From the NCBI GenBank assembly GCA_963819215.1, contig CAWFVK010000009.1, positions 17,267 through 81,266 of the forward strand: a DNA stretch of 64,000 nt, in the 5' to 3' direction. Of this stretch, positions 38,504-54,808 are shown one piece after another. Origin of the DNA: an uncultured Actinomycetota bacterium (GTDB taxonomy: Bacteria; Actinomycetota; Actinomycetes; Prado026). Below the pieces are notes generated by a model. The model was given only the letters and a program-made list of their open reading frames with translations, did not search any database and had not been told where the DNA came from. The translations under genes and the position numbers were made by a program. Each line of letters begins with the position of its first letter. The first letter of the stretch is position 1.

Positions 38504-38992
38504 GTGGCCAGCGCAGGCACGGCCCAGCACCCTGCCCTCCAGTCGTGGTCGGCAGCGGCGGCCCAGCCGGTGATCGATGCGCACGCGCACCTCCGCGGGC
38601 CGCTGCTGCCGGTGCTGCACGCGCTCCAGGAGACCTTCGGGTACATCGACCCGGCGGCCGTGCCACTCGTCGCCAAGACCCTGAATCTCTCGCGGGCGGA
38701 CGTCCACGGCGTCATCACGTTCTACAAGGACTTCCGCAGCGCTCCGCCTGGCGCGCGCACGGTCGCCGTCTGTCGTGGCGAGGCCTGCCAGTCGATGGGC
38801 GCCCACGAGCTTGCCGAGCACGCCTGCCGCAGCCTCGGCGTCGACTTCGGTGAGACGACCGCCGACGGTGCGGTGAGCCTCGACCAGGTGTTCTGCCTCG
38901 GCAACTGCGCGCTGTCGCCGGCGGTGCTCGTGGACGGCAGGCTCGTCGGCCGGGTCGACGCCGACCGCTTCGACCAGCTGGTGCGCCCATGA
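38504..38992 (+). CDS. fdsG: NAD-dependent formate dehydrogenase gamma subunit (NuoE-like 2Fe-2S protein)
   Basis: Intact 162 aa with a GTG after GCAGGAGG. LLPVLHALQETFGYID.., VAVCRGEACQSMG, VFCLGNCALSPA carry the NuoE-type cysteine ligands. Confidence 0.85.
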   Translation: MASAGTAQHPALQSWSAAAAQPVIDAHAHLRGPLLPVLHALQETFGYIDPAAVPLVAKTLNLSRADVHGVITFYKDFRSAPPGARTVAVCRGEACQSMGAHELAEHACRSLGVDFGETTADGAVSLDQVFCLGNCALSPAVLVDGRLVGRVDADRFDQLVRP

Positions 38993-40620
38993 GCCGGGTC
39001 CGGGTCTTCGTGCCCTGCGACTCCGCGGCCAGGTCCGTCGGGGCCGACGACGTCGCGGTCGCGGTGCTCGCCGAGGCCGCCGCTCGCGGTCTGGACGTCG
39101 AGCTGGTGCGCAACGGGTCCCGTGGCATGTTCTGGCTCGAGCCGCTGGTGGAGGTCGAGACCTGGCCGGGCGCGTCGCCTTCGGTCCGGTCGGCTCGGAC
39201 GACGTCGCCGGCCTGTTCGACGCAGGATTCCTCGGTTCAGGATCGCTCGGGCCGGATCGCCGGATGCAGGTCGGCCGGATGCAGGTCGGCCGGATGCTGG
39301 TCAGGTCGCCGATCACCCGCTCGCGCTGGGGCTGACCGAGGACCTCCCGTGGCTGGCGCGCCAGGACCGCCTCACCTTCGCTCGGGTCGGCGTGATCGAT
39401 CCGCTCTCGCCGAGCGACTTCGAGGCGCACGGAGGACTGGCCGGCCTGCGCGCAGCGCTGGCGCTCGCCGCCCGAGCGATCGTCGAGAGGGTGACCGAGT
39501 CCGGGCCTTCGCGGCCGTGGCGGGCGCCGGGTTCCCGACCGGCATCAAGTGGAGGACCGTCGCCGAGGCGCCGGCGACGCCGAAGTTCGTCTGCTGCAAC
39601 GCCGACGAGGGCGACAGCGGCACCTTCGCCGACCGCATGCTGATGGAGGGCGACCCGTTCACCCTGATCGAGGGCATGATCATCGCCGCGATCGCGGTCG
39701 GGGCGACCGAGGGCTTCGTCTACATCCGCTCGGAGTACCCCGACGCGGTGGCGACGATGCGCCGGGCGATCGCCGTCGGCCTACGAGCAGGGCTGGCTCG
39801 GCGCGAGCGTCGCTGGGCAGCGCGCACCGTTTCGACCTCGACGTCCGGGTCGGCGCCGGCGCCTACATCTGCGGGGAGGAGACCGCGATGCTGGAGAGCC
39901 TCGAGGGCAAGCGCGGGATGGTGCGGGCCGAAGCCGCCGCTGCCGGCGCTCGAAGGGCCTGTTCGGGCGGCCGACCGTCGTCAACAACCTGCTCGTCGCT
40001 GGCGCAGCGTGCCGACGATGCTCGCCGACGGCGGCGCGGAGTTCTACCGCGACTTCGGCGTCGGACGCTCCCGCGGCACCCAGGTGTTCCAGCTCGCCGG
40101 CAACGTCAAGCACGGCGGCATCGTCGAGACTGCCTTCGGCATCACGCTGGGCGAGCTGGTCGACGACTTCGGTGGTGGCACCGCCTCGGCCGGCCGGTGC
40201 GTGCGGTGCAGGTCGGCGGCCCGCTGGGCGCGTACGTCCCGGCCGAGAGCTTCGACCTGCCGATGGACTACGAGGCGTTCGCGGCGCCGGCGCCATGGTC
40301 GGGCCACGGCGGCATCGTCGTGTTCGACGACACCGTCGACATGGGCGCGCAGGCGAGGTTCGCGATGGAGTTCTGCGCCGAGGAGTCGTGCGGCAAGTGC
40401 ACGCCGTGCCGGGTCGGGGCCGACCGCGGCGTCGAGGTCATCGACAAGATCCTCGTCGGGGTCGACGCTGGGGAGAACGCCGAGAACCTGGTGCTCCTGC
40501 AGGACCTCTGCGAGCTCATGACCGACGGCTCGCTGTGCGCGATGGGTGGCCTGACGCCGATGCCTGTCCTCAGCGTGCTCAAGCACTTCCCGGAAGATCT
40601 CCGAGAGGAGCCGGCGATGA
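38989..40620 (+). pseudogene. fdsB: NAD-dependent formate dehydrogenase beta subunit (NuoF-like), about 14 frame changes
   Basis: Fragments in rotating frames: MSRVRVFVPCDSAA..GMFWLEPLVEVET, GRVAFGPVGSDDVAGLFDAGFL, HPLALGLTEDLPWLARQDRLTFARVG, GAGFPTGIKWRTV..VCCNADEGDSGTFADRMLMEGDP (FMN/NAD motifs), VRVGAGAYICGEETAMLESLEGKRG, KPPLPALEG, GLFGRPTVVNNLL, ESCGKCTPCRVG, GSLCAMGG. Confidence 0.85.
39251..39304 (+). repeat. 15-bp tandem repeat (about 3.5 copies) inside fdsB encoding PDAGR-PDAGR-PDAGQ
   Basis: CCGGATGCAGGTCGG at 39260-39274 and 39275-39289, a variant CCGGATGCTGGTCAG at 39290-39304, and a truncated copy GCCGGATCG at 39251-39259. Confidence 0.9.
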
Positions 40621-43457
40621 GCCTGCGCAAGCCCGTGGATCTGGGGACCCCGCTCGTCCCGGGTGCCGCCACCGTCCAGGTGGTCGGTCGACGGACTGCC
40701 GGTCGACCGTGCCGCCAGGGACCTCGATCATGCGGGCCGCGGCCATCGCCGGCGTGGACATCCCGAAGCTGTGCGCCACGGACTCCCTGGAGGCCTTCGG
40801 CTCGTGCCGGCTGTGCCTGGTCGAGGTCGACGGCCGCAAGGGCACCCCAGCCTCCTGCACGACCCCGTGCGCGCCGCGGCATGACCGTGACCACCCAGAC
40901 GCCGCGACTGGAGAAGCTGCGGCGCGGCGTGATGGAGCTCTACATCTCCGACCACCCGCTCGACTGCCTGACCTGCCCCGCGAACGGCGACTGCGAGCTG
41001 CAGGACATGGCCGGCGTGGTGGGGCTCCGCGACGTCCGCTACGGCTACGACGGGCGAGAACCACCTCGACGGCGCGAACGACGACAGTCCAACCCGTACT
41101 TCAGCTTCGACGACAGCAAGTGCATCGCCTGCTCGCGCTGCGTGCGCGCCTGCGACGAGGTGCAGGGGACCTTCGCGCTCACGATCGCCGGCCGTGGCTT
41201 CGACTCACGGGTGTCGGCGAGCGCGGGCGAACCTCTTCATGGAGTCCGAGTGCGTCTCGTGCGGCGCCTGCGTGCAGGCGTGCCCGACGTCGACGCTCCA
41301 GGAGAAGACGGTCATCGAGCTCGGGGTCCCGACCAGGACGGTCGCGACCACCTGTGCCTACTGCGGCGTCGGCTGCTCGTTCAACGCCGAGATGCGCGGC
41401 GACCAGGTCGTGCGGATGGTGCCCGACAAGTCCGGCGGCGCCAACGAGGGCCACAGCTGCGTCAAGGGCCGGTTCGCCTGGGGCTACGCGACCCACAAGG
41501 ACCGCCAGCTCGAGCCGATGGTCCGCGGCGTCGATCGACGAGCCGTGGCGGGTGGTGTCCTGGGAGGAGGCGATCAGCTACGCGGCCGAGCGCTTCCTCG
41601 AGCATCCAGGCGGAGCACGGCGTCGGCGCGATCGGCGGGATCACCTCCTCGCGCTGCACCAACGAGGAGGTCTTCGTCGGTGCAGAAGATGATCCGCGCG
41701 GCGTTCGGCAACAACAACGTCGACACCTGCGCGCGGGTCTGCCACTCCCCGACCGGCTACGGCCTCAAGCAGACGTTCGGCACCTCGGCGGGCACCCAGG
41801 ACTTCGCCTCGGTCGCCGAGGCCGACGTGATCGTGGTCATCGGCGCCAACCCGACCGACGGCCACCCGGTGTTCGCCTCCCGGATGAAGCGCCGGCTGCG
41901 CGAGGGTGCCGAGCTGGTCGTCGTCGACCCGCGCCGGATCGACATGGTGCGCACGCCGCACATCGAGGCCGAGCACCACCTGCAGCTGCGCCCGGGCACC
42001 AACGTCGCGATCGTCAACGCGCTGGCGCACGTCGTGGTGACCGAGGGGCTCGTCGACCGGGCGTTCGTCGCGGAGCGCTGCGAGGCCGACGAGCTTCGCG
42101 CAGTGGGAGGCGTTCATCGCCGCGACGGAGAACAGCCCGGAGGCGGTCGAGGCAGATCACCGGCGTGCCGGCCGCGGACATCCGGGCCGCGGCTCGGCTG
42201 CTACGCGTCCGCCCGCAACGCCGCGATCTACTACGGCCTCGGCGTCACCGAGCACAGCCAGGGCTCGACGATGGTCATGGGCATGGCGAACCTCGCGATG
42301 GCGACCGGCAACATCGGCCGCGACGGCGTAGGCGTCAACCCGCTGCGCGGTCAGAACAACGTGCAGGGCTCGTGCGACATGGGCTCCTTCCCGCACGAGC
42401 TCCCCGGCTACCGGCACGTCAGCGACGACACCGCTCGGCACGTCTTCGAGGACCTCTGGGGGACGCCCCTGGACGCCAACCCCGGCCTGCGGATCCCCAA
42501 CATGTTCGAGGCCGCGATCGCCGGCACCTACCGCGCGATGTTCGTCCAGGGCGAGGACATCGCGCAGTCCGACCCCAACGTCGACGCACGTGAAGGCGGC
42601 GCTGGGCTCGCTCGACCTGCTCGTCGTGCAGGACCTCTTCCTCAACGAGACGGCCAAGTTCGCCCACGTCTTCCTGCCGGGCACCTCGTTCCTGGAGAAG
42701 GACGGCACGTTCACCAACGCCGAGCGCCGGATCAACCGGGTGCGGCCGGTGATGGCGCCCAAGACGGGCAAGCAGGAGTGGCAGGTCGCCTGCGAGCTCG
42801 CCACCGCCATGGGCTACCCGATGGACTACGCGAACGGCGCCGAGATCATGGCGGAGATCGCGGCCACCACGCCGACCTTCGCCGGTGTCTCGTTCGCCCG
42901 GCTCGACGAGCTCGGCAGCATCCAGTGGCCGTGCAACGCGGACGCTCCGGACGGCACCCCGATCATGCACGTCGACGGCTTCGTGCGAGGCAAGGGGCAC
43001 TTCGTCGACACGCCCTTCGTCCCGACCGAGGAGCGCACCAGCCGCCGGTTCCCGCTGGTGCTGACCACCGGCCGGATCCTCAGCCAGTACAACGTGGGCG
43101 CGCAGACGCGGCGCACGGCCAACGTCGCGCTGGCACGGTGAGGACGTCCTCGAGATCCACCCCCATGACGCCGAGGAGCGCGGGATCACCGAGGGCTGCT
43201 CCGTCGCGATCACCAGCCGGGTCGGCGAGACGGTGCTGCGCGCGAAGATCGCCGACCGGATGCCGCAGGGTGTGGTCTACACGACGTTCCACTACCCGAG
43301 CAGCGGCGCGAACGTCATCACCACGGACTACTCCGACTGGGCGACGAACTGCCCGGAGTACAAGGTGACGGCGGTGCAGGTGTCGCCCACCGTGCGGGCG
43401 CCGGTCACGGACGCCGAGAACGAGGCCGAGCACCAGCCGGTGGCCAGCTTCCAGTGA
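40617..43457 (+). pseudogene. fdsA: NAD-dependent formate dehydrogenase alpha (molybdopterin) subunit, about 14 frame changes
   Basis: Fragments: GVDIPKLCATDSLEAFGSCRLCLVEVDG (2Fe-2S), YISDHPLDCLTCPANGDCELQD, CIACSRCVRACDEVQG, ESECVSCGACVQACPT, TTCAYCGVGCSF, NNVDTCARVCHSPTG (Cys, not Sec, at the Mo ligand position), GQNNVQGSCDMG, ..TTFHYPSSGANVITTDYSDWATNCPEYKVTAVQV..*. Confidence 0.9.
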
Positions 43458-46674: not shown

Positions 46675-47646
46675 CTACGAGCCGACCGCCGCCAAGCGGC
46701 GGAACCCCTCGTCGAGATCGACCGCGGGCGTCCAGCGCAGGACCTCCCGGGTCTCCCGCTGGTCGAACCAGTGCGCGGTAGCCAGCTGCTCCGCCAGGAA
46801 CCGCGTCATGGGCGGATCATCGGAACGCCGCAGCACGGCCCAGGCTGCTTCAGCGACAGCTCCGGCGGCCTGGGCGGCCCGGAACGGCAGGCGCAGCGTC
46901 GGATCGGGAGCGCCCACCGCAGCGCAGATGCTGCTGACCAGCTCCGCCACCGTCCGGGGCTGGCCGTTCGACACGACGAAGGCCCGTCCGTGGGCCGGCC
47001 CGTCGGGCGTCGCGCGATCGAGGGCGGCGACTATGGCGTCGGCCGCGTTGTCGACGTAGGTCGTGTCGATCAGTGCCGCGCCCTGGTCGATCAGCGCCAG
47101 CCGTCCGGAGCGCGCTCGTTCGGCGATCCGGCCAACCAGCTGGGTGTCGCCCGGGCCCCAGACGAGGTGCGGCCGGACGGCCACCACCGCGAGCCCCGGG
47201 CTGTCCGCCGCCAGCGCGATGAGCTCCGCCTGTGCCTTGCTGCGTGCGTAGTGCCCACGGGCGGCTGCCGGATCTGCCGGCGCGGCTCCGACCCCCACGA
47301 GGGACCGCCCGGCGTGCCCGACCGACGGCGAGGACACCTGCACGAACCGGCCGACGCCCGCTGCCCGGGCGGCCGCGAGCGCGTTGGCGGTGCCAGCGAC
47401 GTTGACGGCAGCGAAGTCGCGCCACGGTCCGGTGACGGCGACCTTCGCCGCCAGGTGGACCACCGCATCCGTCCCCGCCGCGGCCGCATGGAGCGCGTCG
47501 AGGTCGGTGACGGAACCGCGAACCTCCTGCCACGGCCCGCTCGACGCGCCGCGCTGGAACACCGTGACCTCGTCCCCGCGGTCAGCGAGGGACCGGGCGA
47601 CGGCGCGGCCGAGCATCCCGCTCGCCCCGGTGACCAGGACGCGCAC
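46675..47646 (-). CDS. oleD: OleD: NAD(P)H-dependent 2-alkyl-3-ketoalkanoate reductase (3-beta-HSD/epimerase family)
   Basis: The GTG at 47646 lies 1 nt after the oleBC stop. VRVLVTGASGMLG Rossmann motif and YARSK catalytic Tyr-x3-Lys. It is the last gene of the oleA-oleBC-oleD arrangement. Confidence 0.8.
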   Translation of the reverse strand: MRVLVTGASGMLGRAVARSLADRGDEVTVFQRGASSGPWQEVRGSVTDLDALHAAAAGTDAVVHLAAKVAVTGPWRDFAAVNVAGTANALAAARAAGVGRFVQVSSPSVGHAGRSLVGVGAAPADPAAARGHYARSKAQAELIALAADSPGLAVVAVRPHLVWGPGDTQLVGRIAERARSGRLALIDQGAALIDTTYVDNAADAIVAALDRATPDGPAHGRAFVVSNGQPRTVAELVSSICAAVGAPDPTLRLPFRAAQAAGAVAEAAWAVLRRSDDPPMTRFLAEQLATAHWFDQRETREVLRWTPAVDLDEGFRRLAAVGS

Positions 47647-47647
47647 G

Positions 47648-50449
47648 TCAGCCCCGACGGATGGGCGAATGACGGATGGGCGACCGGCGAAGGGGTGACC
47701 GGAGCCTGCGTGACCGACGCGCGAGCGAACCCGCGCGACCACCGGACAGCACGACACCGGCCCAGGCTGCGACGGCAGTGCGGTCGATCTTGGAGTTGTG
47801 GCGGATGTCGACCGGAAGGGCCGGCACGACGAGCACCGCAGCCACCTCGACGCCGGCCGCGGCCCTGACCGCTGCGGAGGTCGCGGGATCGGCCAAGCCC
47901 GACGCCGGCCGACGATCAGTCGACTCGAGGACCACCACGACGGCGACGGCCTGCGTCCCCACCGGACCGACCCCGACGACGGCAGCCTGCCGGATGCGAC
48001 CCAGGGCCTCGACGCGTTGTTCGACACCGACCGGGGTGAGCACCCCGTGCGGGGTGGTGATGACGTGCTGCAGCCGGCCTTCGACCCACAGCCGTCCGGC
48101 GTCGTCGAGATGGCCGACGTCTCCGGTGCGGTGCCACCCGCGATCGCTGCCGCTTGCCGGGAAGGCGGTGCTGGCCGAGCCGGCGGTGCTGGCCTGCTGG
48201 GTGATCCACAGCCGGTCGTAGCGGTCCTTCACGTGCGCCGCCCGGACGCAGATCTCGCCAGTCAGCCACGGCTTGTCGACGAGCTCGGGCTCTGCTCTGC
48301 CGTGCGGGTCCAACGGGCTGATGGCGAGCTCGACTCCGTCGACGGGGTGGCCGACGCAGACCCCCTCGCCGGTCCCAGCGCGCAGGATCTCGTCGAGGTC
48401 GATGTCCGTGACGGGCAGCGCCTCGGTCATGCCGTAGGGCGTGTGCAGGCTCGCGTTCGGCATCAGGGCCCGCACGCGTTGCAGCAGCGTGACGGGCACG
48501 GGTGCGCCGGCGGACAGCAGCAGGCGTACGCCGCCCAGGGCGCGGTGCTGGCGCGGGTTGAGCCGCTCGGCGGTCGCCACCACGTTGACCAGGGCAGCGG
48601 GCGAGGAGAAGACCAGCGTGGCGTCCACGGCGTCGACCGCGTCGGCGAGGGCGGTGGCCTGCAGGGTGGCCGGTGCCGTGACGTCCATGTCCGGGACGGC
48701 CGAGGTGATGCCGAGGGCGGGGCCGTAGAGGGCGAACGGAGCGAAAGCGGCGACGAGGCGGTCGTCAGGCCCGATGGAGTAGGTGCGGCGGAGCGCGTCG
48801 CGCTGGGCCTCGAGCTGTTCGTGGCGGTACACGACGCCCTTGGGCGGCCCCGTCGCGCCAGAGGTGAAGAGGATGGCTGCCTCGTCGCTGGCCTGCGGGG
48901 GGTCGGGTAGCTGCTGGGTGCCAGGGCTGGCGAGGGCCTCCCGGGCGATGACCCGGCCGGGCCAGCGGAGCACCCGAGCGGCGGCCAGCGCACGCGGGAT
49001 GCCGATGAGATGCTGCGGCCCAGCCCCGCGCAGCGCTCGGGTCAGGCCCTGCACGCCGAGACCGGCGTCGGCCAGCACGATCACGGCGCCGATGCGCCAG
49101 CAGGCGTAGACCAGCGTCGCGAGCTCCGGCCCCGGCGGCACCAGCAGCGCAACCCGGTCGCCAGGGCTGACACCGTGCGCGGTGAGCCCGGCGGCGACGG
49201 CGTGCACGCGTTGGCCGAGCTCGGTGAAGCTGATCGACACGGGAGCCGACCCTGCCTTGCCGAGCTGGACGATGGCGGGGCGGTCGCCGCCTGCCGCATC
49301 GGTGGCTCGGGACTCGAGCTCAGCCCACAGCGGGACGCGCGGACCAGCGGTCGACCCGGCGGCCGACCCGGCGGTCGACTCGGCGGTCGACTCGGCGGTC
49401 GACTGTGCAGTCGACTCTGGGGACAGCGCGGGGACCGACGTCCGATGCGGCCCAGACAGCGACTGGATGAAGGCGGTGACGGGGCTGGCGATGTCGCGGT
49501 CCTCGGCCAGCAGGTGGCCGGCGCCCTCGAACCGGTGGACCTGCGCATGGGGGAGCCTCGCGACCAGGTCTCGCAGGTAGCGGTCGGAGAAGACCGGGTC
49601 CCGTGGACCCCACAGGAGCAGCACCGGGATCTCCGCGAGGTCCGCGAGCCCGGCGGCGATCGCCTCGAGCGTGGCGGCGGAAGGGTGGTCGGGGCGCAGC
49701 GGGATGTCTTCGACGAACGCACCGATCGCGGCCCGGCGGGCGGCAGACCGGTAGGGCGCGCGGTACCCGGCCCGGACCTCGCGGACCGGTCGTGGGTGGC
49801 CGAGGCCGAGGGTGCCGTCAAGGAACGTGGTCGTCGTGACGCAGGTGGCCGTCAGGACGCCTGGGGTTCGCGCGAGGGCGATGAGGGCCGGGACTGGCGA
49901 GCCGGGCGGCTGGCTGACGGCCGTGTTGGTGAGCACCACCCCGACGAGCTGGTCGCGGTGCGCGAGCGCCCAACCCAGCGAGATCGGGCCGCCCCAGTCG
50001 TGGGCGAGCGTCACCACGGGTCCGTCGATGCCCAGAGCGTCGGTCAACGCGCCGAGGTCGGAGACGCGCTCGGCCAGCCGACGGGGAGCCGCCGTGCGCT
50101 CCGAGAAGCCCATCCCGAGATGGTCGACCGCCACGACGCGCCAGCCGGCAGGTGCCTGCGCGAGCATGTCTCGCCAGAGGTAGGACCAGGTGGGGTTCCC
50201 GTGCACGCAGAGCAGCGTGCCGACCGGAGCGTCGGGGCTGGCGGCGCCCGGCTCGCCTGGGTCGTCGGGGCTGGCAGCGCCCGGCCTCGAAGCGTGGGTG
50301 TCCAGGACGTGCCAGGTCCGGGGGTTGCCCGCGGCGTCCTCGGTGGTGACCAAGCGCGACCAGGCGGGGTCGAGGCCCGGCAGACCTGCGGGTGGCAGCT
50401 GGGCCGGTGCAGTCCGGTCCTGGGCGGGCGGGGGCGTGCCCTTCCTCAC
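47648..50449 (-). CDS. oleBC: OleB-OleC fusion: alpha/beta-hydrolase (beta-lactone decarboxylase) plus AMP-dependent synthetase (beta-lactone synthetase)
   Basis: The GTG at 50449 overlaps the oleA stop (GTGA). N-terminal domain: LCVHGNPTWSYLWRDM and LAHDWGG (haloalkane-dehalogenase-like, Asp nucleophile). Repeat linker: STAQSTAESTAESTAGSAAGSTAG. C-terminal domain: ILFTSGATGPPKG (AMP-binding), HRTGDVG. About 933 aa, uninterrupted. The upstream part of ORF 47648..51490 is out-of-frame overlap with oleA. Confidence 0.85.
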   Translation of the reverse strand: MRKGTPPPAQDRTAPAQLPPAGLPGLDPAWSRLVTTEDAAGNPRTWHVLDTHASRPGAASPDDPGEPGAASPDAPVGTLLCVHGNPTWSYLWRDMLAQAPAGWRVVAVDHLGMGFSERTAAPRRLAERVSDLGALTDALGIDGPVVTLAHDWGGPISLGWALAHRDQLVGVVLTNTAVSQPPGSPVPALIALARTPGVLTATCVTTTTFLDGTLGLGHPRPVREVRAGYRAPYRSAARRAAIGAFVEDIPLRPDHPSAATLEAIAAGLADLAEIPVLLLWGPRDPVFSDRYLRDLVARLPHAQVHRFEGAGHLLAEDRDIASPVTAFIQSLSGPHRTSVPALSPESTAQSTAESTAESTAGSAAGSTAGPRVPLWAELESRATDAAGGDRPAIVQLGKAGSAPVSISFTELGQRVHAVAAGLTAHGVSPGDRVALLVPPGPELATLVYACWRIGAVIVLADAGLGVQGLTRALRGAGPQHLIGIPRALAAARVLRWPGRVIAREALASPGTQQLPDPPQASDEAAILFTSGATGPPKGVVYRHEQLEAQRDALRRTYSIGPDDRLVAAFAPFALYGPALGITSAVPDMDVTAPATLQATALADAVDAVDATLVFSSPAALVNVVATAERLNPRQHRALGGVRLLLSAGAPVPVTLLQRVRALMPNASLHTPYGMTEALPVTDIDLDEILRAGTGEGVCVGHPVDGVELAISPLDPHGRAEPELVDKPWLTGEICVRAAHVKDRYDRLWITQQASTAGSASTAFPASGSDRGWHRTGDVGHLDDAGRLWVEGRLQHVITTPHGVLTPVGVEQRVEALGRIRQAAVVGVGPVGTQAVAVVVVLESTDRRPASGLADPATSAAVRAAAGVEVAAVLVVPALPVDIRHNSKIDRTAVAAWAGVVLSGGRAGSLARRSRRLRSPLRRSPIRHSPIRRG
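47656..47685 (-). repeat. 15-bp tandem repeat x2 at the extreme 3' end of oleBC (SPIRH-SPIRR)
   Basis: GACGGATGGGCGAAT and GACGGATGGGCGACC on the plus strand, preceded by a degenerate third copy (encoding SPLRR). Confidence 0.8.
49348..49419 (-). repeat. 12-bp tandem repeat x6 encoding the (S-T-A-E/G/Q) linker between the OleB and OleC domains
   Basis: Plus strand: GCGGTCGACCCG, GCGGCCGACCCG, GCGGTCGACTCG, GCGGTCGACTCG, GCGGTCGACTGT, GCAGTCGACTCT. Confidence 0.9.
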
Positions 50450-51468
50450 CAGAGGATCTCGCTGAAGGCGGTGTTCAGGCCCGAGCCGATGCCCATGCAG
50501 AGCACCCGGTCGCCGGGGTTCAGCACCTCGACCTGGTGCGCGAGCGTCAGCGGGACCGAGGCCGGGCCGATGTTGCCGAGCAGCGGGAAGGTGAGCGGCA
50601 CGCGGTCGGTGTCGATGCCGAGCTTGGCGCACAGCGCGCTGGTGTGCACCGAGGAGACCTGGTGGAGGACGTAGCAGTCCATGTCGGACCAGTCGTGCTC
50701 GGGCTTCGCGGCGAGCCAGGCGGCCTCGGCGAGCGCCAGGCCGGCGTCGAGCAGGCCCTTGGTGTCGGTCCGCATGTGCTCGAGGTCGCCGACGCACAGC
50801 TGGTTGTGCTCGGTACCGGAACGCGCGACGCCGCCGAGCAGGCGGTGCGCCCCCGGGTGCTGGTCGGCGGGGCCGAGGACCATCGCTGCGGCGCCCGAGC
50901 CGAGGGTCAGCGTCGCGAACTCGGCGAAGAGGTCCTCGACGGTCGTGTCGGGCCCGGAGAGCCGGCGGATCGTGGCCTGCTGGGTGGCTCGGCTGTCCTC
51001 GCCATCCACGATCAGGGCGTACTCGATGTGGCCGGCGTCGATCATCGTGCCGGCCAGGTGCATGGCGTTCACGAAGCCGAGGCAGGCGTTCGCGAGGTCG
51101 AAGTTGAGACAGGAGGTCGGCAGCCCGAGGCTGTGGTGAACCTCGACGGCCGCCGACGGCTCGAGGTGCGCTCGGCAGACGGAGCTGTTGATCATGAGGC
51201 CGAACCGGTCGGGATCGATGCCGGACTCGGCGATGGCCTTCGCGCCGGCCATCGCGGCGGCCTCGGCGAAGGTGACGTCTTCCGGCCACCAGCGGCGCTC
51301 GTGGATACCGGCCAGTCCCTGCAGCAGCCCTGGCCGGAGACCGAGCCTGGTGAGGGTCTCGACGAGCTGGTCGTCGAAGTCGGCCGACGTGACGACCTGG
51401 GGCCCTTCCACCGAGGACACCGCGAGGATGGCCGTGTTGGAGTGGCTGTATGTCGAGTTGCCGTTCAT
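50446..51468 (-). CDS. oleA: OleA: thiolase-fold (FabH-like) acyl-CoA condensing enzyme
   Basis: Intact 340 aa. NFDLANACLGFVNAM (active-site Cys), HQVSSVH and GNIGPASVP (His/Asn of the FabH-type triad). It is the first gene of the ole arrangement. Confidence 0.85.
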   Translation of the reverse strand: MNGNSTYSHSNTAILAVSSVEGPQVVTSADFDDQLVETLTRLGLRPGLLQGLAGIHERRWWPEDVTFAEAAAMAGAKAIAESGIDPDRFGLMINSSVCRAHLEPSAAVEVHHSLGLPTSCLNFDLANACLGFVNAMHLAGTMIDAGHIEYALIVDGEDSRATQQATIRRLSGPDTTVEDLFAEFATLTLGSGAAAMVLGPADQHPGAHRLLGGVARSGTEHNQLCVGDLEHMRTDTKGLLDAGLALAEAAWLAAKPEHDWSDMDCYVLHQVSSVHTSALCAKLGIDTDRVPLTFPLLGNIGPASVPLTLAHQVEVLNPGDRVLCMGIGSGLNTAFSEILW

Positions 51469-51569
51469 GCCCGTCCCTTCGAACGATCAACGGGGCATGC
51501 TCGACACCGTCGACCTGCGAGGGTCCACTTTCTCATGAACCGGCCCCGCGGACGGACCGCGGCGCCCCG

Positions 51570-52277
51570 CTACTGCTTCGCGCTGCCCTCCAGCCAGCGC
51601 GCCCGAACCAGCTCGACCATCTCCGGGGCGGCCCCGAGCGGGGCGGCGACGCGGATGGCCCCCGCCGCCCGCGCCTGCTCGCTGATGCGCTGGGCCAGCG
51701 TCCCCGGCGCGATCAGGTAGGGAGCGACGGTGGCGAAAGGATCTTCGGTGACGGCGAGCGCGACCGCCTCGTCGAGCGGCCGCCCGCTCCCCGACAAGAA
51801 CCCGGTGGAGACCGGTCCGGGCCGTCGTTCGGCCAGGTACCCGGCCACCAGCTCGACCTGCGCCACAGCGTCTGGGTCGGACGAGCCTGCCGCTGCCAGG
51901 ACCACTGGCGCCAGCGGGGCCGTGCCAGCCTCGTCGAGCCGGCGGATCATCGCCTCGGCGAGCAGGACGTCGGGGCCGAGCGGCTCGGAGATCTGCACGT
52001 TGCGGACGCCCTGCAGCATGCCCGGCACATCGACCCTGGCGTGGAACCCCGCCGTGAGGAGCAGCGGGACCACGACCACGGGTGAGCGACGACCGGCGGC
52101 GCCACGCTGCCTGGCTGCCGCGACGGCTCCGACGAGGTCGGGCTGGTGGTGGTCGAGCCAGCCGATGACGGTGTCACCCTTGCGCCCCACGGCGTCGCAG
52201 AGAGCCTGGATCGCCGGGCGGTGGGCCGGGTGCGGGCTGCCATGGGCGGCGAGGACCAGCGGCGGGAGGGCAGTCAC
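51570..52277 (-). CDS. cbiX: sirohydrochlorin ferrochelatase (CbiX/SirB type)
   Basis: Intact 235 aa. VLAAHGS...VVVPLLLTAGFH in both halves (duplicated CbiX fold). It lies downstream of sirA-cysH, as in mycobacterial sirA-cysH-che1. Confidence 0.8.
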   Translation of the reverse strand: MTALPPLVLAAHGSPHPAHRPAIQALCDAVGRKGDTVIGWLDHHQPDLVGAVAAARQRGAAGRRSPVVVVPLLLTAGFHARVDVPGMLQGVRNVQISEPLGPDVLLAEAMIRRLDEAGTAPLAPVVLAAAGSSDPDAVAQVELVAGYLAERRPGPVSTGFLSGSGRPLDEAVALAVTEDPFATVAPYLIAPGTLAQRISEQARAAGAIRVAAPLGAAPEMVELVRARWLEGSAKQ

Positions 52278-52332: not shown

Positions 52333-53071
52333 CTAGCGGTGCAGGCCGCACTCGGTCTTGGCGAACCCGGCCCAGCGACCAGAGCGGGGGTCCTCGCCGG
52401 GGGCGACCGGGCGGGTGCACGGGGCGCAGCCGATCGAGGCGTAGCCGAACTCACGCAGCGGGTTGTAGCGAAGGCCGTGCTCGAGGACGTAGGCGTCGAC
52501 CTGATCCTGCGTCCAGGTCGCGATGGGGTTGATCTTGACCTTGCCGCGGGCGCCGTCCCAGGCGACGACCGGGGTCGCGGCCCTGGTGCTCGCCTCGTCG
52601 CGGCGGACCCCGCTGATCCAGGCGTCATACGGCGCGAGCGCGCGGTGCAGCGGCTCGACCTTGCGCATCGCGCAGCACGCGTCGGGGTCGCGGTCGTGCA
52701 GCTGGGAGCCGTAGACGGCGTCCTGCTCCTCGACGCTGAGCTCGGGCCGGATGTCGATGACGTTCGCGTTGAGCCGCTCTGCCACCGAGCGCCGGAAGTC
52801 GAGGGTCTCCGGGAAGTGGTACCCGGTGTCGAGGAACACGACGTCGATGCCCGGGACTGCGGTGGAGGCGAGATGCAGCGACGACCTCGTCGGCCATCGA
52901 CGACGTCACGACGAGCCGCGGGCCGAAGGTGCGGCCGGCCCACGCGAGGGTCTCGCGGGGGTCGGCGTCCTCGAAGGCGCGGCTGGCCGCAGCGACCAGC
53001 TCACGGGTCGGTGCGGTGGCATAACGCGCAGCGGTCGGCGCGAGCGGCACGGCCTGCTCGAGCAGCGTCAC
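52333..53071 (-). CDS. cysH: phosphoadenosine/adenosine phosphosulfate reductase (1 frameshift near 52860 as sequenced)
   Basis: The N-terminal 70 aa (VTLLEQAV..LAWAGRTFGPRLVVTSSMADEVV) sit in the frame of ORF 52625..54808. The rest is ORF 52333..52839 (FLDTGYHFPETL.., C-terminal ECGLH). The GTG overlaps the sirA stop. Confidence 0.85.
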
Positions 53072-54808
53072 TTCAGCACCTCCTCGTCTGCGCGGACCGC
53101 CCACTGGGCGAACGTCTCGCCCTCGGACCGGCCCTCGTCGAACTGGTGGACCACACGCTCCACATAGTCGGGCAGGTCGGTCGCGGCGACGCGCAGGCCG
53201 CGGACCGTCCGACCGAACCCGGCCTCCTGGCCCAGCCGACCACCTAGATGAACCTGGAACCCCTCGGTGTCGCCGCCCATTCCATCGGGCACGAGGACGC
53301 CCTTGAGCCCGATGTCGGCGACCTGGATCCGGGCGCAGGAGTTGGGGCAGCCGTTGACGTGGATGGTCAGCGGCTCGGCGAAGGTCGGCAGGCGATCCTC
53401 GAGCGCGGCGACCAGCGTGCCGGCGTTGCCCTTCGTCTCGGTGATCGCGAGCTTGCAGTACTCGATGCCCGTGCACGCCATGGCGCCCCGGCGGAAGGTG
53501 CTCGGGGCGACCTGCAGACCCACGCCGTCGAGGGCCGCGGTCACGGCGTCGACCTGGTCCGCCGCGACGTCGAGCACGACGATGCTCTGCTCGACGGTCA
53601 GGCGGAGCTGGTCCGAGCCAGCTAGCTCCATCGCGTCGGCGAGGGTGCTGAGCGACGTGCCGGACAGCCGTCCGACGGTCGGCTTGGCGCCGATGGAGAA
53701 GCGGCCGTCCTTCTGCGGGTGCACGCCGATGTGGTCGCGACGGCCACGGGGCGGGTCGGCCGGCGGCGGGCCCGTCGCGCAGCGGGCGCTTGAGGTACTC
53801 GGTCTCCAGCACCTCGCGGAACCGGGCAGCGCCCCAGTCCGCCACCAGGAACTTCAGGCGCGCCTTGGTGCGCAGCCGGCGGTAGCCGTAGTCGCGGAAG
53901 ATGCTGACCACCCCGGCCCAGACCTCGGGGATCTCGTCCAGCGAGACGAAGGCGCCGAGCCGCTGAGCAAGGTGCGGGTTGGTGGACAGCCCGCCGCCGA
54001 CCCAGACGTCGAAGCCGGGGCCGTGCTCCGGGTGGCGCACGCCGACGAACGAGAGGTCGTTGACCTCGTGCGCGACGTCCTGGTGCGGTGAGCCGCTGAT
54101 CGCCGTCTTGAACTTGCGGGGGAGGTTGGAGAACTCCGGGTTGCCGACGTGCCGGCGCACGACCTCCGCGATGGCGGGGGTGCCGTCGACGATCTCGTCG
54201 ACCGCGACACCGGCGACGGGCGAGCCGAGGATGACGCGCGGGGTGTCGCCGCAGGCCTCGGCGGTGCTCAGCCCGACCGCCTCGAGCCGCCGCCAGATCT
54301 CCGGGACGTCCTCGACCCGGATCCAGTGCAGCTGGATGTTCTGCCGGTCGGTCACGTCGGCGGTGTCACGGGCGAAGTCGCGGGAGATGCCGGCGATCAC
54401 CCGGACCTGCTCAGTCGTCAGCGCGCCGCCGTCGATGCGGATCCGCAGCATGAAGAAGGGTGCGTCCAGCTTCTCCGGCTCGATCGTGGCGGTACGGCCG
54501 CCGTCGATTCCCTCGGCACGCTGTGTGTAGAGCCCCCACCAGCGCATCCGGCCACGGAGGTCGGACGGATCGATCGAGGCGAACCCGCGGTGGGCGTAGA
54601 TGTTCTCGATCCGGGCGCGGACGTTCAGCCCGTCGTCGTCCTTCTTCATCCGCTCGTTCACGTTGAGGGGCTCGTGGAAGCCGAGCGCCCACTGGCCCTC
54701 GCCGCGTGGCTTGCCGCCACCGCGCGTGCGCGGCGGCTTCCCGCCCGCGACAGGTGCGGCGGGCGGCTGGGACGGAGGAGAGGCGGCGGGCGTTGCAGGG
54801 GTGGTCAT
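53068..54808 (-). CDS. sirA: ferredoxin-dependent sulfite reductase (NirA/SirA type) (1 frameshift near 53760 as sequenced)
   Basis: N-terminal 350 aa: MRWWGLYTQR, FFMLRIRIDGG, RQNIQLHWI, TAEACGDTPR. The C-terminal part in ORF 53068..53724 has the siroheme/4Fe-4S cysteines ACTGIEYCKLA and VNGCPNSCAR. Confidence 0.88.

What the first reader, a model, noticed from the sequence alone, without database searches (positions are those of the whole stretch)
46675..51468. Complete three-gene olefin (head-to-head hydrocarbon) cluster oleA-oleBC-oleD
The cluster has three parts. The first is a FabH-like thiolase with the active-site Cys (oleA). The second is a fusion of a haloalkane-dehalogenase-like hydrolase and an AMP-dependent synthetase (oleBC, about 933 aa). 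The third is a short-chain reductase (oleD). They are tightly packed: a GTGA overlap joins oleA to oleBC, and oleD starts 1 nt after the oleBC stop. This matches the actinobacterial ole architecture described for Micrococcus luteus and relatives, which makes long-chain alkenes through a beta-lactone intermediate. All 4.8 kb are free of frame changes, in contrast with neighbouring regions.
Basis: partly seen in the sequence, partly recalled or inferred. Interest (0 to 1): 0.6.

Follow-up and report, generated by a model that had tools for sequence, protein, structure and literature searches.

The report
Ordinary actinobacterial olefin gene cluster
This is an intact three-gene oleA-oleBC-oleD cluster, the known pathway that joins two fatty acids into a long-chain alkene, found in an uncultured high-GC actinobacterium; the call is sound but the cluster is ordinary.

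Summary
On the minus strand lie oleA (51468-50446, 340 aa), oleBC (50449-47648, 933 aa, GTGA overlap with the oleA stop) and oleD (47646-46675, 323 aa, starting 1 nt after the oleBC stop).

The interpretation also holds.
- OleA scores 296 bits against Xanthomonas campestris OleA structures and about 76 bits against E. coli FabH. It keeps Glu117, Cys143, His285 and Asn315 of that enzyme. In a tree it falls in the OleA clade (support 100/99), away from FabH.
- A separate fabH lies on another contig of the same genome.
- The OleB domain keeps the five catalytic residues of subfamily III haloalkane dehalogenases, so the end product should be an alkene and not a beta-lactone.
- OleC and OleD keep their core motifs and hit the olefin-specific NCBIfam models best, though below those models' cut-offs.
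- The same gene order with fused B-C recurs in nearly all 80 related loci, and OleA is present in all 12 genomes of this family.

The "frameshift-free" contrast with neighbouring genes is real but statistically weak. One local oddity is a ~77-nt insertion at the oleBC/oleD junction, which adds a 25-residue tail. This is a new member of a known kind and of low interest.

The parts
50446..51468 (-). oleA: OleA thiolase (340 aa, ATG start). It performs the head-to-head, non-decarboxylative Claisen condensation of two fatty acyl-CoAs.
   Evidence: NF006720 scores 434.8 bits against a cut-off of 285. X. campestris OleA 3ROW scores 296 bits against about 76 for E. coli FabH. E103, C129, H269 and N299 correspond to Xc Glu117, Cys143, His285 and Asn315, and the pattern EPxx[AS]x(14,18)DxxNACL matches at residue 103. 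It sits in the OleA clade with 100/99 support.
47648..50449 (-). oleBC: one 933-aa ORF (GTG start inside the GTGA overlap with the oleA stop) that fuses OleB and OleC.
   Evidence: Translation and junction. Pfam finds Abhydrolase_1 at residues 78-198 and AMP-binding at 386-741. It aligns in one frame with nine fused homologues at 60-68% identity.
49445..50449 (-). OleB domain (about residues 1-335): subfamily III haloalkane-dehalogenase-like beta-lactone decarboxylase.
   Evidence: Haloalkane dehalogenase models and structures match at E 1e-25 to 1e-32. The pentad N85, D151-W152, D284 and H312 has the same spacing as DhmeA N63/D129-W130/D258/H286 (PMC10503415). All five positions are invariant.
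49347..49417 (-). Low-complexity linker between the OleB and OleC domains: 5.9 copies of a 12-nt unit encoding STAE/STAG.
   Evidence: Tandem Repeats Finder. The homologues have unrelated linkers of variable length at this point (columns 345-390).
47726..49333 (-). OleC domain (about residues 373-908): ATP-dependent beta-lactone synthetase of the adenylate-forming superfamily.
   Evidence: OlefBLtnSynXan matches at E 1.9e-94 over positions 35-541 of 544, and PRK09274 at 380 bits. The motifs TSGATGPPKG (529-538), YGMTE (672), TGD (775-777) and SKIDR (886) are present.
47651..47725 (-). Lineage-specific 25-codon Arg/Ser/Pro-rich tail of OleBC, created by a ~77-nt insertion at the oleBC/oleD junction. 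It contains a 15-nt tandem duplication (47656-47685).
   Evidence: Relatives end at ...GGRAGRP* with a 4-nt overlap onto oleD. The repeat is shown. The insertion occurs only once in the genome.
46675..47646 (-). oleD: OleD, an NAD(P)H-dependent 2-alkyl-3-oxoalkanoate reductase (323 aa, GTG start).
   Evidence: oxyalk_red_OleD matches at E 8.2e-100 over positions 2-326 of 329. Pfam finds Epimerase and 3Beta_HSD. GASGMLG (7-13) and Y133xxxK137 are present.
51469..51569 (-). 101-nt spacer between the cbiX stop and the oleA start, with a GAAGGGA Shine-Dalgarno-like motif 5 nt before the ATG. It is the probable site of the cluster's own promoter.
   Evidence: Sequence read. No sigma-70 consensus promoter or intrinsic terminator was found, so the promoter is inferred only.

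Best explanation
The region is a functional-looking oleA-oleBC-oleD operon for head-to-head long-chain olefin synthesis, in an uncultured high-GC member of the Actinomycetes.

The mechanism below is inferred from the characterised Xanthomonas and Micrococcus systems.
1. OleA acylates Cys129 with one fatty acyl-CoA. Glu103 of the partner subunit deprotonates the alpha-carbon of a second acyl-CoA. A non-decarboxylative Claisen condensation then gives a 2-alkyl-3-oxoalkanoic acid.
2. OleD reduces it with NAD(P)H to the 2-alkyl-3-hydroxy acid.
3. The OleC half of OleBC adenylates the carboxylate and closes a cis-beta-lactone.
4. The tethered OleB half opens the lactone through Asp151, with His312 and Asp284 as base and acid, and releases CO2 and a cis-alkene that stays in the membrane.

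Shown here: gene structure, family placement, retention of every catalytic residue, conserved synteny, and a separate fabH in the same genome. Inferred: the activity itself, the chain lengths of the product (set by the cell's acyl-CoA pool and OleA specificity), and expression.
For: - Exact ORFs and junctions and a continuous coding phase in each gene.
- OleA: NF006720 scores 434.8 bits against a cut-off of 285. It scores 296 bits to X. campestris OleA structures and 44% identity, against about 76 bits to E. coli FabH. Glu117, Cys143, His285 and Asn315 equivalents and the published OleA pattern are present (PMC7158056, PMC8180931).
- In a maximum-likelihood tree the window's OleA sits in a 45-row clade with Xc OleA (100/99, stem 2.7 changes per site), apart from E. 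coli FabH and nine actinobacterial FabH proteins.
- The genome has its own fabH on contig C2 (230 + 119 bits on TIGR00747), while OleA scores only 64 bits on that model.
- The OleB catalytic pentad is intact (PMC10503415).
- OleC and OleD each rank an olefin-specific NCBIfam model among their best hits.
- Homologues of OleBC are named olefin beta-lactone synthetase by JGI.
- The order oleA-oleB-oleC-oleD, with B and C in one frame, holds in nearly all of 80 related loci.
- All 12 genomes of the family carry OleA above the cut-off, against 16 of 301 across the phylum.
Against:
- OleC (317 bits against 900; PRK09274 380 against 478) and OleD (334 against 580) fall below the curated cut-offs of the olefin-specific NCBIfam models, which were built on Xanthomonas and Shewanella types.
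- OleBC carries an unusual 25-residue tail and lacks about 26 residues of a variable loop that most homologues have.
- The assembly has many frame errors elsewhere, so small undetected errors here cannot be excluded.
Confidence: 0.88

Rival explanations
1. The cluster makes a beta-lactone natural product (lipstatin or nocardiolactone type) and not an alkene. OleA, OleD and OleC build the lactone, and it is not decarboxylated.
For: OleA, OleC and OleD homologues are shared between the two pathways (PMC7064751). The OleC and OleD scores are below the olefin equivalog cut-offs.
Against: Beta-lactone clusters are defined by the absence of oleB (PMC7064751). Here an OleB domain is fused to OleC with all five catalytic residues of subfamily III haloalkane dehalogenases intact and invariant among homologues. 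No tailoring genes flank the cluster: the neighbours are purU and cbiX-cysH-sirA.
Confidence: 0.04
2. The genes are present but the pathway is impaired or silent in this organism. Possible causes are the 25-residue tail and the loss of translational coupling at the oleBC/oleD junction, or undetected assembly or real lesions.
For: The junction differs from every same-family relative examined, which all have a 4-nt overlap. The tail shows no codon bias (and my count of about 0.73 GC3). The genome has many frame disruptions.
Against: All three ORFs are full length with every catalytic residue. The tail lies after the last conserved residue of OleC. Spacers of 58-124 nt occur naturally in Acidimicrobiia relatives.
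Confidence: 0.07
3. The thiolase is an ordinary FabH/KAS III that starts fatty-acid synthesis, and the neighbouring genes are unrelated lipid enzymes.
For: Pfam sees only generic ACP_syn_III domains. NF006720 is itself named 3-oxoacyl-ACP synthase III.
Against: It scores 64 bits on the fabH model TIGR00747, and a true fabH lies elsewhere in the genome. The tree separates it from FabH with 100/99 support. The OleA-specific Glu is present. Linkage to oleBC and oleD is invariant. None of the 14 control genomes has NF006720 above its cut-off, whereas fabH exceeds its own cut-off in 8 of them.
Confidence: 0.01

Closest known systems
Three-gene ole cluster of Micrococcus luteus and other Micrococcales (oleA, oleBC fusion, oleD)
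   Same: Same gene order and the same OleB-OleC fusion in one polypeptide. The genes are tightly coupled and the host phylum is the same. The expected chemistry is long-chain alkenes from two acyl-CoAs (PMC7158056, PMC7064751; the M. luteus genetics of Beller et al. 2010 are cited from my own knowledge).
   Different: The host is an uncultured lineage whose relatives are labelled Actinomycetes or Candidatus Nanopelagicales, not Micrococcales. The linker is a 12-nt repeat. A ~77-nt insertion at the oleBC/oleD junction adds a 25-residue tail. No M. luteus sequence could be fetched here, so no identity figure is given.
Xanthomonas campestris OleABCD (biochemical and structural reference; OleA structures 3ROW, 4KU5, 5VXF)
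   Same: OleA is 44% identical, with Glu117, Cys143, His285 and Asn315 conserved. OleC and OleD each match the Xanthomonas-type NCBIfam model among their top hits. OleB belongs to the same haloalkane dehalogenase subfamily III, with the same pentad (PMC10503415).
   Different: Xanthomonas has four separate genes with OleB and OleC unfused. The window's OleC and OleD score below the equivalog cut-offs of the Xanthomonas-type models.
oleACD-type beta-lactone clusters (lipstatin lst genes, nocardiolactone)
   Same: They share homologous OleA, OleC and OleD enzymes and the same first three reactions (PMC7064751).
   Different: Those clusters lack OleB and stop at the beta-lactone. The window has an intact OleB domain.

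Membership tests
OleA (head-to-head condensing thiolase) | Closer to characterised OleA than to FabH/KAS III, by score and by phylogeny | tested here: met
   296 bits to Xc OleA against about 76 to E. coli FabH. NF006720 scores 434.8 against a cut-off of 285. It lies in a clade with Xc OleA at 100/99 support, with FabH outside.
OleA (head-to-head condensing thiolase) | Cys-His-Asn triad plus the OleA-specific Glu117 base | tested here: met
   C129, H269, N299 and E103 align to Xc C143, H285, N315 and E117. Residue roles are taken from PMC8180931 and the papers it cites.
OleA (head-to-head condensing thiolase) | Published search pattern EPxx[AS]x(14,18)DxxNACL, with oleBCD within 5 kb (Surger et al. 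2020) | tested here: met
   The pattern matches at residues 103-130, and oleBC and oleD are directly adjacent. The criterion is from PMC7158056.
OleA (head-to-head condensing thiolase) | Condenses two long-chain acyl-CoAs without decarboxylation | not testable with these tools
   This needs an enzyme assay.
OleB (beta-lactone decarboxylase, haloalkane dehalogenase subfamily III) | Alpha/beta-hydrolase fold with the subfamily III pentad Asn, Asp-Trp, Asp, His | tested here: met
   N85, D151-W152, D284 and H312 have spacings of 66/133/28, against 66/129/28 in DhmeA (PMC10503415). All are invariant. Dehalogenase models and structures match at E 1e-25 to 1e-32.
OleC (olefin beta-lactone synthetase) | Scores above the curated cut-off of an OleC equivalog model | tested here: not met
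   OlefBLtnSynXan scores 317 against 900, OlefBLtnSynShew 274 against 850, and PRK09274 380 against 478. These three are the top hits and cover nearly the full model, so the shortfall reflects divergence from the proteobacterial types.
OleC (olefin beta-lactone synthetase) | Core motifs of adenylate-forming enzymes and genomic linkage to oleA and oleD | tested here: met
   TSGATGPPKG, YGMTE, TGD and K887 are present. Linkage holds in nearly all related loci.
OleD (2-alkyl-3-oxoalkanoate reductase) | Scores above the curated cut-off of the OleD equivalog model | tested here: not met
   oxyalk_red_OleD scores 334 against 580. It is still the best hit by 220 bits over the next unrelated family (HpnA, 111 bits).
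OleD (2-alkyl-3-oxoalkanoate reductase) | Extended short-chain dehydrogenase with a GxxGxxG nucleotide site and a YxxxK catalytic pair | tested here: met
   GASGMLG at 7-13 and Y133ARSK137. Pfam finds Epimerase and 3Beta_HSD.
Actinobacterial three-gene ole operon | Order oleA, fused oleBC, oleD on one strand, tightly spaced | tested here: met
   The same layout occurs in relatives.
Actinobacterial three-gene ole operon | Produces long-chain alkenes in vivo | not testable with these tools

The most novel reading that the evidence does not exclude
Head-to-head olefin synthesis may be a universal, vertically kept trait of this whole uncultured actinobacterial family: 12 of 12 genomes carry OleA, against about 5% of genomes across the phylum. 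It may also be common in other uncultured Actinomycetota such as Acidimicrobiia and lineages labelled Nanopelagicales. That is well beyond the Micrococcales, to which the 2020 literature confined it among Gram-positives. If so, membrane alkenes would be a widespread and overlooked lipid class, and a possible biomarker source, in soil and freshwater actinobacteria. A bolder side reading is that the stop-free ~77-nt insertion at the oleBC/oleD junction is a step toward an OleB-C-D triple fusion, or hides one behind an assembly error (my estimate: about 3%).
Probability: 0.6. Interest if true: 0.3.

Novelty: new member of a known kind. Interest (0 to 1): 0.15.

Why it matters
The find adds one more lineage to a well-understood pathway. 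The genes predict that an uncultured family of high-GC soil or freshwater actinobacteria puts long-chain alkenes in its membrane. The survey made here shows the fused oleBC cluster is much more widely spread among uncultured Actinomycetota than the Micrococcales-centred literature states (PMC7158056, PMC7064751). That matters slightly for interpreting environmental alkene biomarkers and for sourcing OleA variants with new chain-length specificity. It opens no new mechanistic question. This scan has already met the same cluster in at least 18 genomes.

Tried and rejected
- **Hidden or compensated frameshifts in the cluster:** rejected. OleBC aligns in one frame with homologues throughout. This includes the stretch 47820-48059, where the frame plot is ambiguous because it is Val/Ala-rich.
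- **HMM frame switch at 47779:** rejected as a frameshift. It is the bias-free tail.
- **Junction insertion as a dispersed repeat or mobile element:** rejected. There is only one copy in the genome.
- **Homopolymer density as the reason the cluster escaped frame errors:** rejected. The cluster has as many runs of 5 or more (1.5 per kb) as the window average (1.0 per kb), and more than the heavily disrupted fds region (0.4 per kb).
- **Promoter and terminator scan:** nothing found.
- **Literature search for ole genes in Nanopelagicales or Acidimicrobiia:** no paper joins these terms.
- **Triple OleB-C-D fusions among 67 related junctions and the 120 best homologues:** none seen.
- **First attempt at the synteny script:** failed on a missing file and was rerun.

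Full report
**Observation.**
- oleA runs 51468..50446 (ATG, 340 aa).
- oleBC runs 50449..47648 (GTG, 933 aa). Its GTG overlaps the oleA TGA as GTGA.
- oleD runs 47646..46675 (GTG, 323 aa). It begins one base after the oleBC TGA.

In DNA this GC-rich, long open frames arise by chance (49 ORFs of 80 aa or more in 10 kb), so the frames were checked by composition. A frame plot shows one continuous minus-strand coding phase per gene, with third-position GC of 0.85-1.00.

**Family assignment.**
- *OleA.* It has FabH-type Pfam domains. It passes the NCBIfam equivalog NF006720 at 434.8 bits against a cut-off of 285, and gets only 93 bits on the fabH model. Against solved structures, the twelve best hits are all X. 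campestris OleA (296 bits, E 4e-87). The next hits, true FabH enzymes, reach about 76 bits.
- *OleBC.* It combines an alpha/beta-hydrolase at residues 78-330, matching haloalkane dehalogenases at E about 1e-25 to 1e-32, with an AMP-binding domain. The three best NCBIfam hits of that domain are PRK09274 and the two olefin beta-lactone synthetase models.
- *OleD.* Its best hit is the 2-alkyl-3-oxoalkanoate reductase model (E 8e-100), 220 bits ahead of the next unrelated family.
- *Caveat.* The OleC and OleD scores are below those models' high curated cut-offs. By NCBI's own rule they would not be auto-named, and I record that as not met.

**Catalytic residues.**
- *OleA.* E103, C129, H269 and N299 align with Glu117, Cys143, His285 and Asn315 of the X. 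campestris enzyme (roles from PMC8180931 and the papers it cites). The OleA search pattern of Surger et al. (PMC7158056) matches at residue 103.
- *OleB.* The domain has N85, D151-W152, D284 and H312. This is the pentad of subfamily III haloalkane dehalogenases, the subfamily to which XcOleB belongs, with almost the same spacing as in DhmeA (PMC10503415). All five positions are invariant among ten fused homologues.
- *OleC.* It keeps the P-loop TSGATGPPKG, YGMTE, TGD and the C-terminal Lys887.
- *OleD.* It keeps GASGMLG and Y133xxxK137.

I built a maximum-likelihood tree of 57 sequences. It included:
- the window's OleA;
- X. campestris OleA, taken from the alignment;
- E. coli K-12 FabH;
- high-scoring homologues from related genomes;
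- ten low-scoring FabH-like genes from the same class.

The window's protein lies in a 45-row clade with X. campestris OleA, supported 100/99 on a stem of 2.7 changes per site. E. coli FabH and nine actinobacterial FabH proteins form a separate group. One divergent thiolase from G013, entered twice as L023 and L111, sits outside both groups. The genome also has its own fabH on contig C2. It is broken into two pieces by a frame change, and the pieces score 230 and 119 bits on TIGR00747. OleA is therefore an additional enzyme and not the housekeeping one.

**Relatives and distribution.**
- The OleBC fusion has thousands of homologues. The nearest outside this genome is only 63% identical, and many are named olefin beta-lactone synthetase by JGI.
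- A scan of species-representative genomes returned 80 loci. Most are metagenome-assembled genomes labelled Actinomycetes, Candidatus Nanopelagicales, Acidimicrobiia or Ilumatobacteraceae, plus cultured Ilumatobacter and Microlunatus.
- In nearly every locus with enough flank the order is oleA, oleB, oleC, oleD, with B and C in one frame.
- All 12 genomes of the window's family have OleA above the cut-off, as do 8 of 29 other families sampled in the class. Across the phylum the figure is 16 of 301 genomes.
- Scores are bimodal: at least 295 bits even for two partial hits and 402-464 bits for full-length ones, against 146 bits or fewer for the rest.
- The 2020 literature places Gram-positive ole clusters, and the oleBC fusion, essentially in the Micrococcales (PMC7158056, PMC7064751). 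No paper in the library links ole genes to these other lineages. The wider spread is a modest extension of what is published.
- Earlier agents of this scan reached the same conclusion for Acidimicrobiia and other genomes.

**Mechanism.** By homology to the characterised systems (PMC7158056, PMC7064751):
1. OleA condenses two acyl-CoAs to a 2-alkyl-3-oxo acid.
2. OleD reduces it.
3. OleC forms the beta-lactone using ATP.
4. The fused OleB domain decarboxylates it to a cis-alkene.

The intact OleB domain argues against the main rival, a beta-lactone end product, because those clusters lack oleB (PMC7064751). The flanking genes are purU downstream and cbiX-cysH-sirA upstream, so no tailoring enzymes are present.

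**The "no frame changes" claim.** It is true. The neighbours are indeed disrupted: sirA is split near 53737 and cysH near 52879. A crude seven-state frame HMM finds about 32 unexplained same-strand frame switches in the other 59 kb, of which eleven are in the fds region. That average rate predicts about 2.6 switches in 4.8 kb, so P(0) is about 0.07. The switches are also clustered, so the contrast carries little weight.

Homopolymer density does not explain the pattern. The ole cluster has more runs of 5 or more than the fds region. Several relatives, including two of the closest, come from MAG sets with megabase contigs, and this genome is only 68% complete by marker genes despite having 19 contigs. 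I think assembly error is the likelier cause.

**One local oddity.**
- In 33 of 67 relatives, including every same-family genome examined, OleBC ends at ...GGRAGRP* and its stop overlaps the oleD start by 4 nt.
- The window has 79 nt between the last conserved OleC codon and the oleD start, the second-largest gap in the set.
- No frame has a stop codon inside the inserted stretch, so the insertion is read through as a 25-residue Arg/Ser/Pro-rich tail.
- It contains a 15-nt tandem duplication (47656-47685), shows no codon bias, and is unique in the genome.
- It lies after all conserved OleC residues and probably does little harm, but it removes the usual translational coupling.

**Verdict.** This is a new member of a known kind, and its interest is low.

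Noticed in passing
window 47651-47725 (repeat at 47656-47685): A ~77-nt insertion at the oleBC/oleD junction contains a 15-nt tandem duplication just before the stop codon. Relatives have a 4-nt overlap here. Earlier notes report short tandem repeats on the folD and CGNR stop codons, so this is a third case of a short tandem repeat at a gene's 3' end in this window.
   Followed up: partly
own genome G000:C2:134043-135000 (minus strand): The housekeeping fabH is split into two frames at about 134680 (model positions 3-109 and 109-321). This is another frame disruption in an essential gene, which favours assembly error over gene decay.
   Followed up: partly
window 52879 and 53737: cysH and sirA each change frame once with no stop codon nearby. 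After the sirA shift, the out-of-frame reading stays open for a further 1.1 kb (the ATG-started ORF in that frame spans 52625-54808).
   Followed up: partly
window 38983-43131 and the whole window: A crude frame HMM finds about 33 same-strand frame switches without a nearby stop in 64 kb, eleven of them in the fds operon. Homopolymer density is lowest there (0.4 runs of 5 or more per kb), so simple homopolymer miscalls do not explain the clustering.
   Followed up: partly
window 49347-49417: 5.9 copies of a 12-nt unit encode the STAE/STAG linker between the OleB and OleC domains. Homologues have unrelated linkers of variable length.
   Followed up: partly
window about 50231-50290 (OleBC residues about 54-73): A near-duplicated PGAASPD segment forms an N-terminal insertion that is absent from all nine aligned homologues.
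   Followed up: no
window about 48900 (OleBC residues 499-512): OleC lacks about 26 residues of a variable loop that most homologues have between RVIA and LPxxP. One homologue (P0063) is also shortened there.
   Followed up: no
loci L065, L077, L082, L084, L036: Records titled Bifidobacterium breve, Rubrivirga sp. or Actinomyces sp. carry ole clusters that group by sequence with clusters from uncultured Actinomycetota. These MAG labels are probably wrong.
   Followed up: no
window 51540-51570: A GC-rich palindrome (CCGCGG tccgt CCGCGG) lies directly after the cbiX stop, with no T-run. It may be a terminator-like hairpin that separates cbiX from oleA.
   Followed up: no
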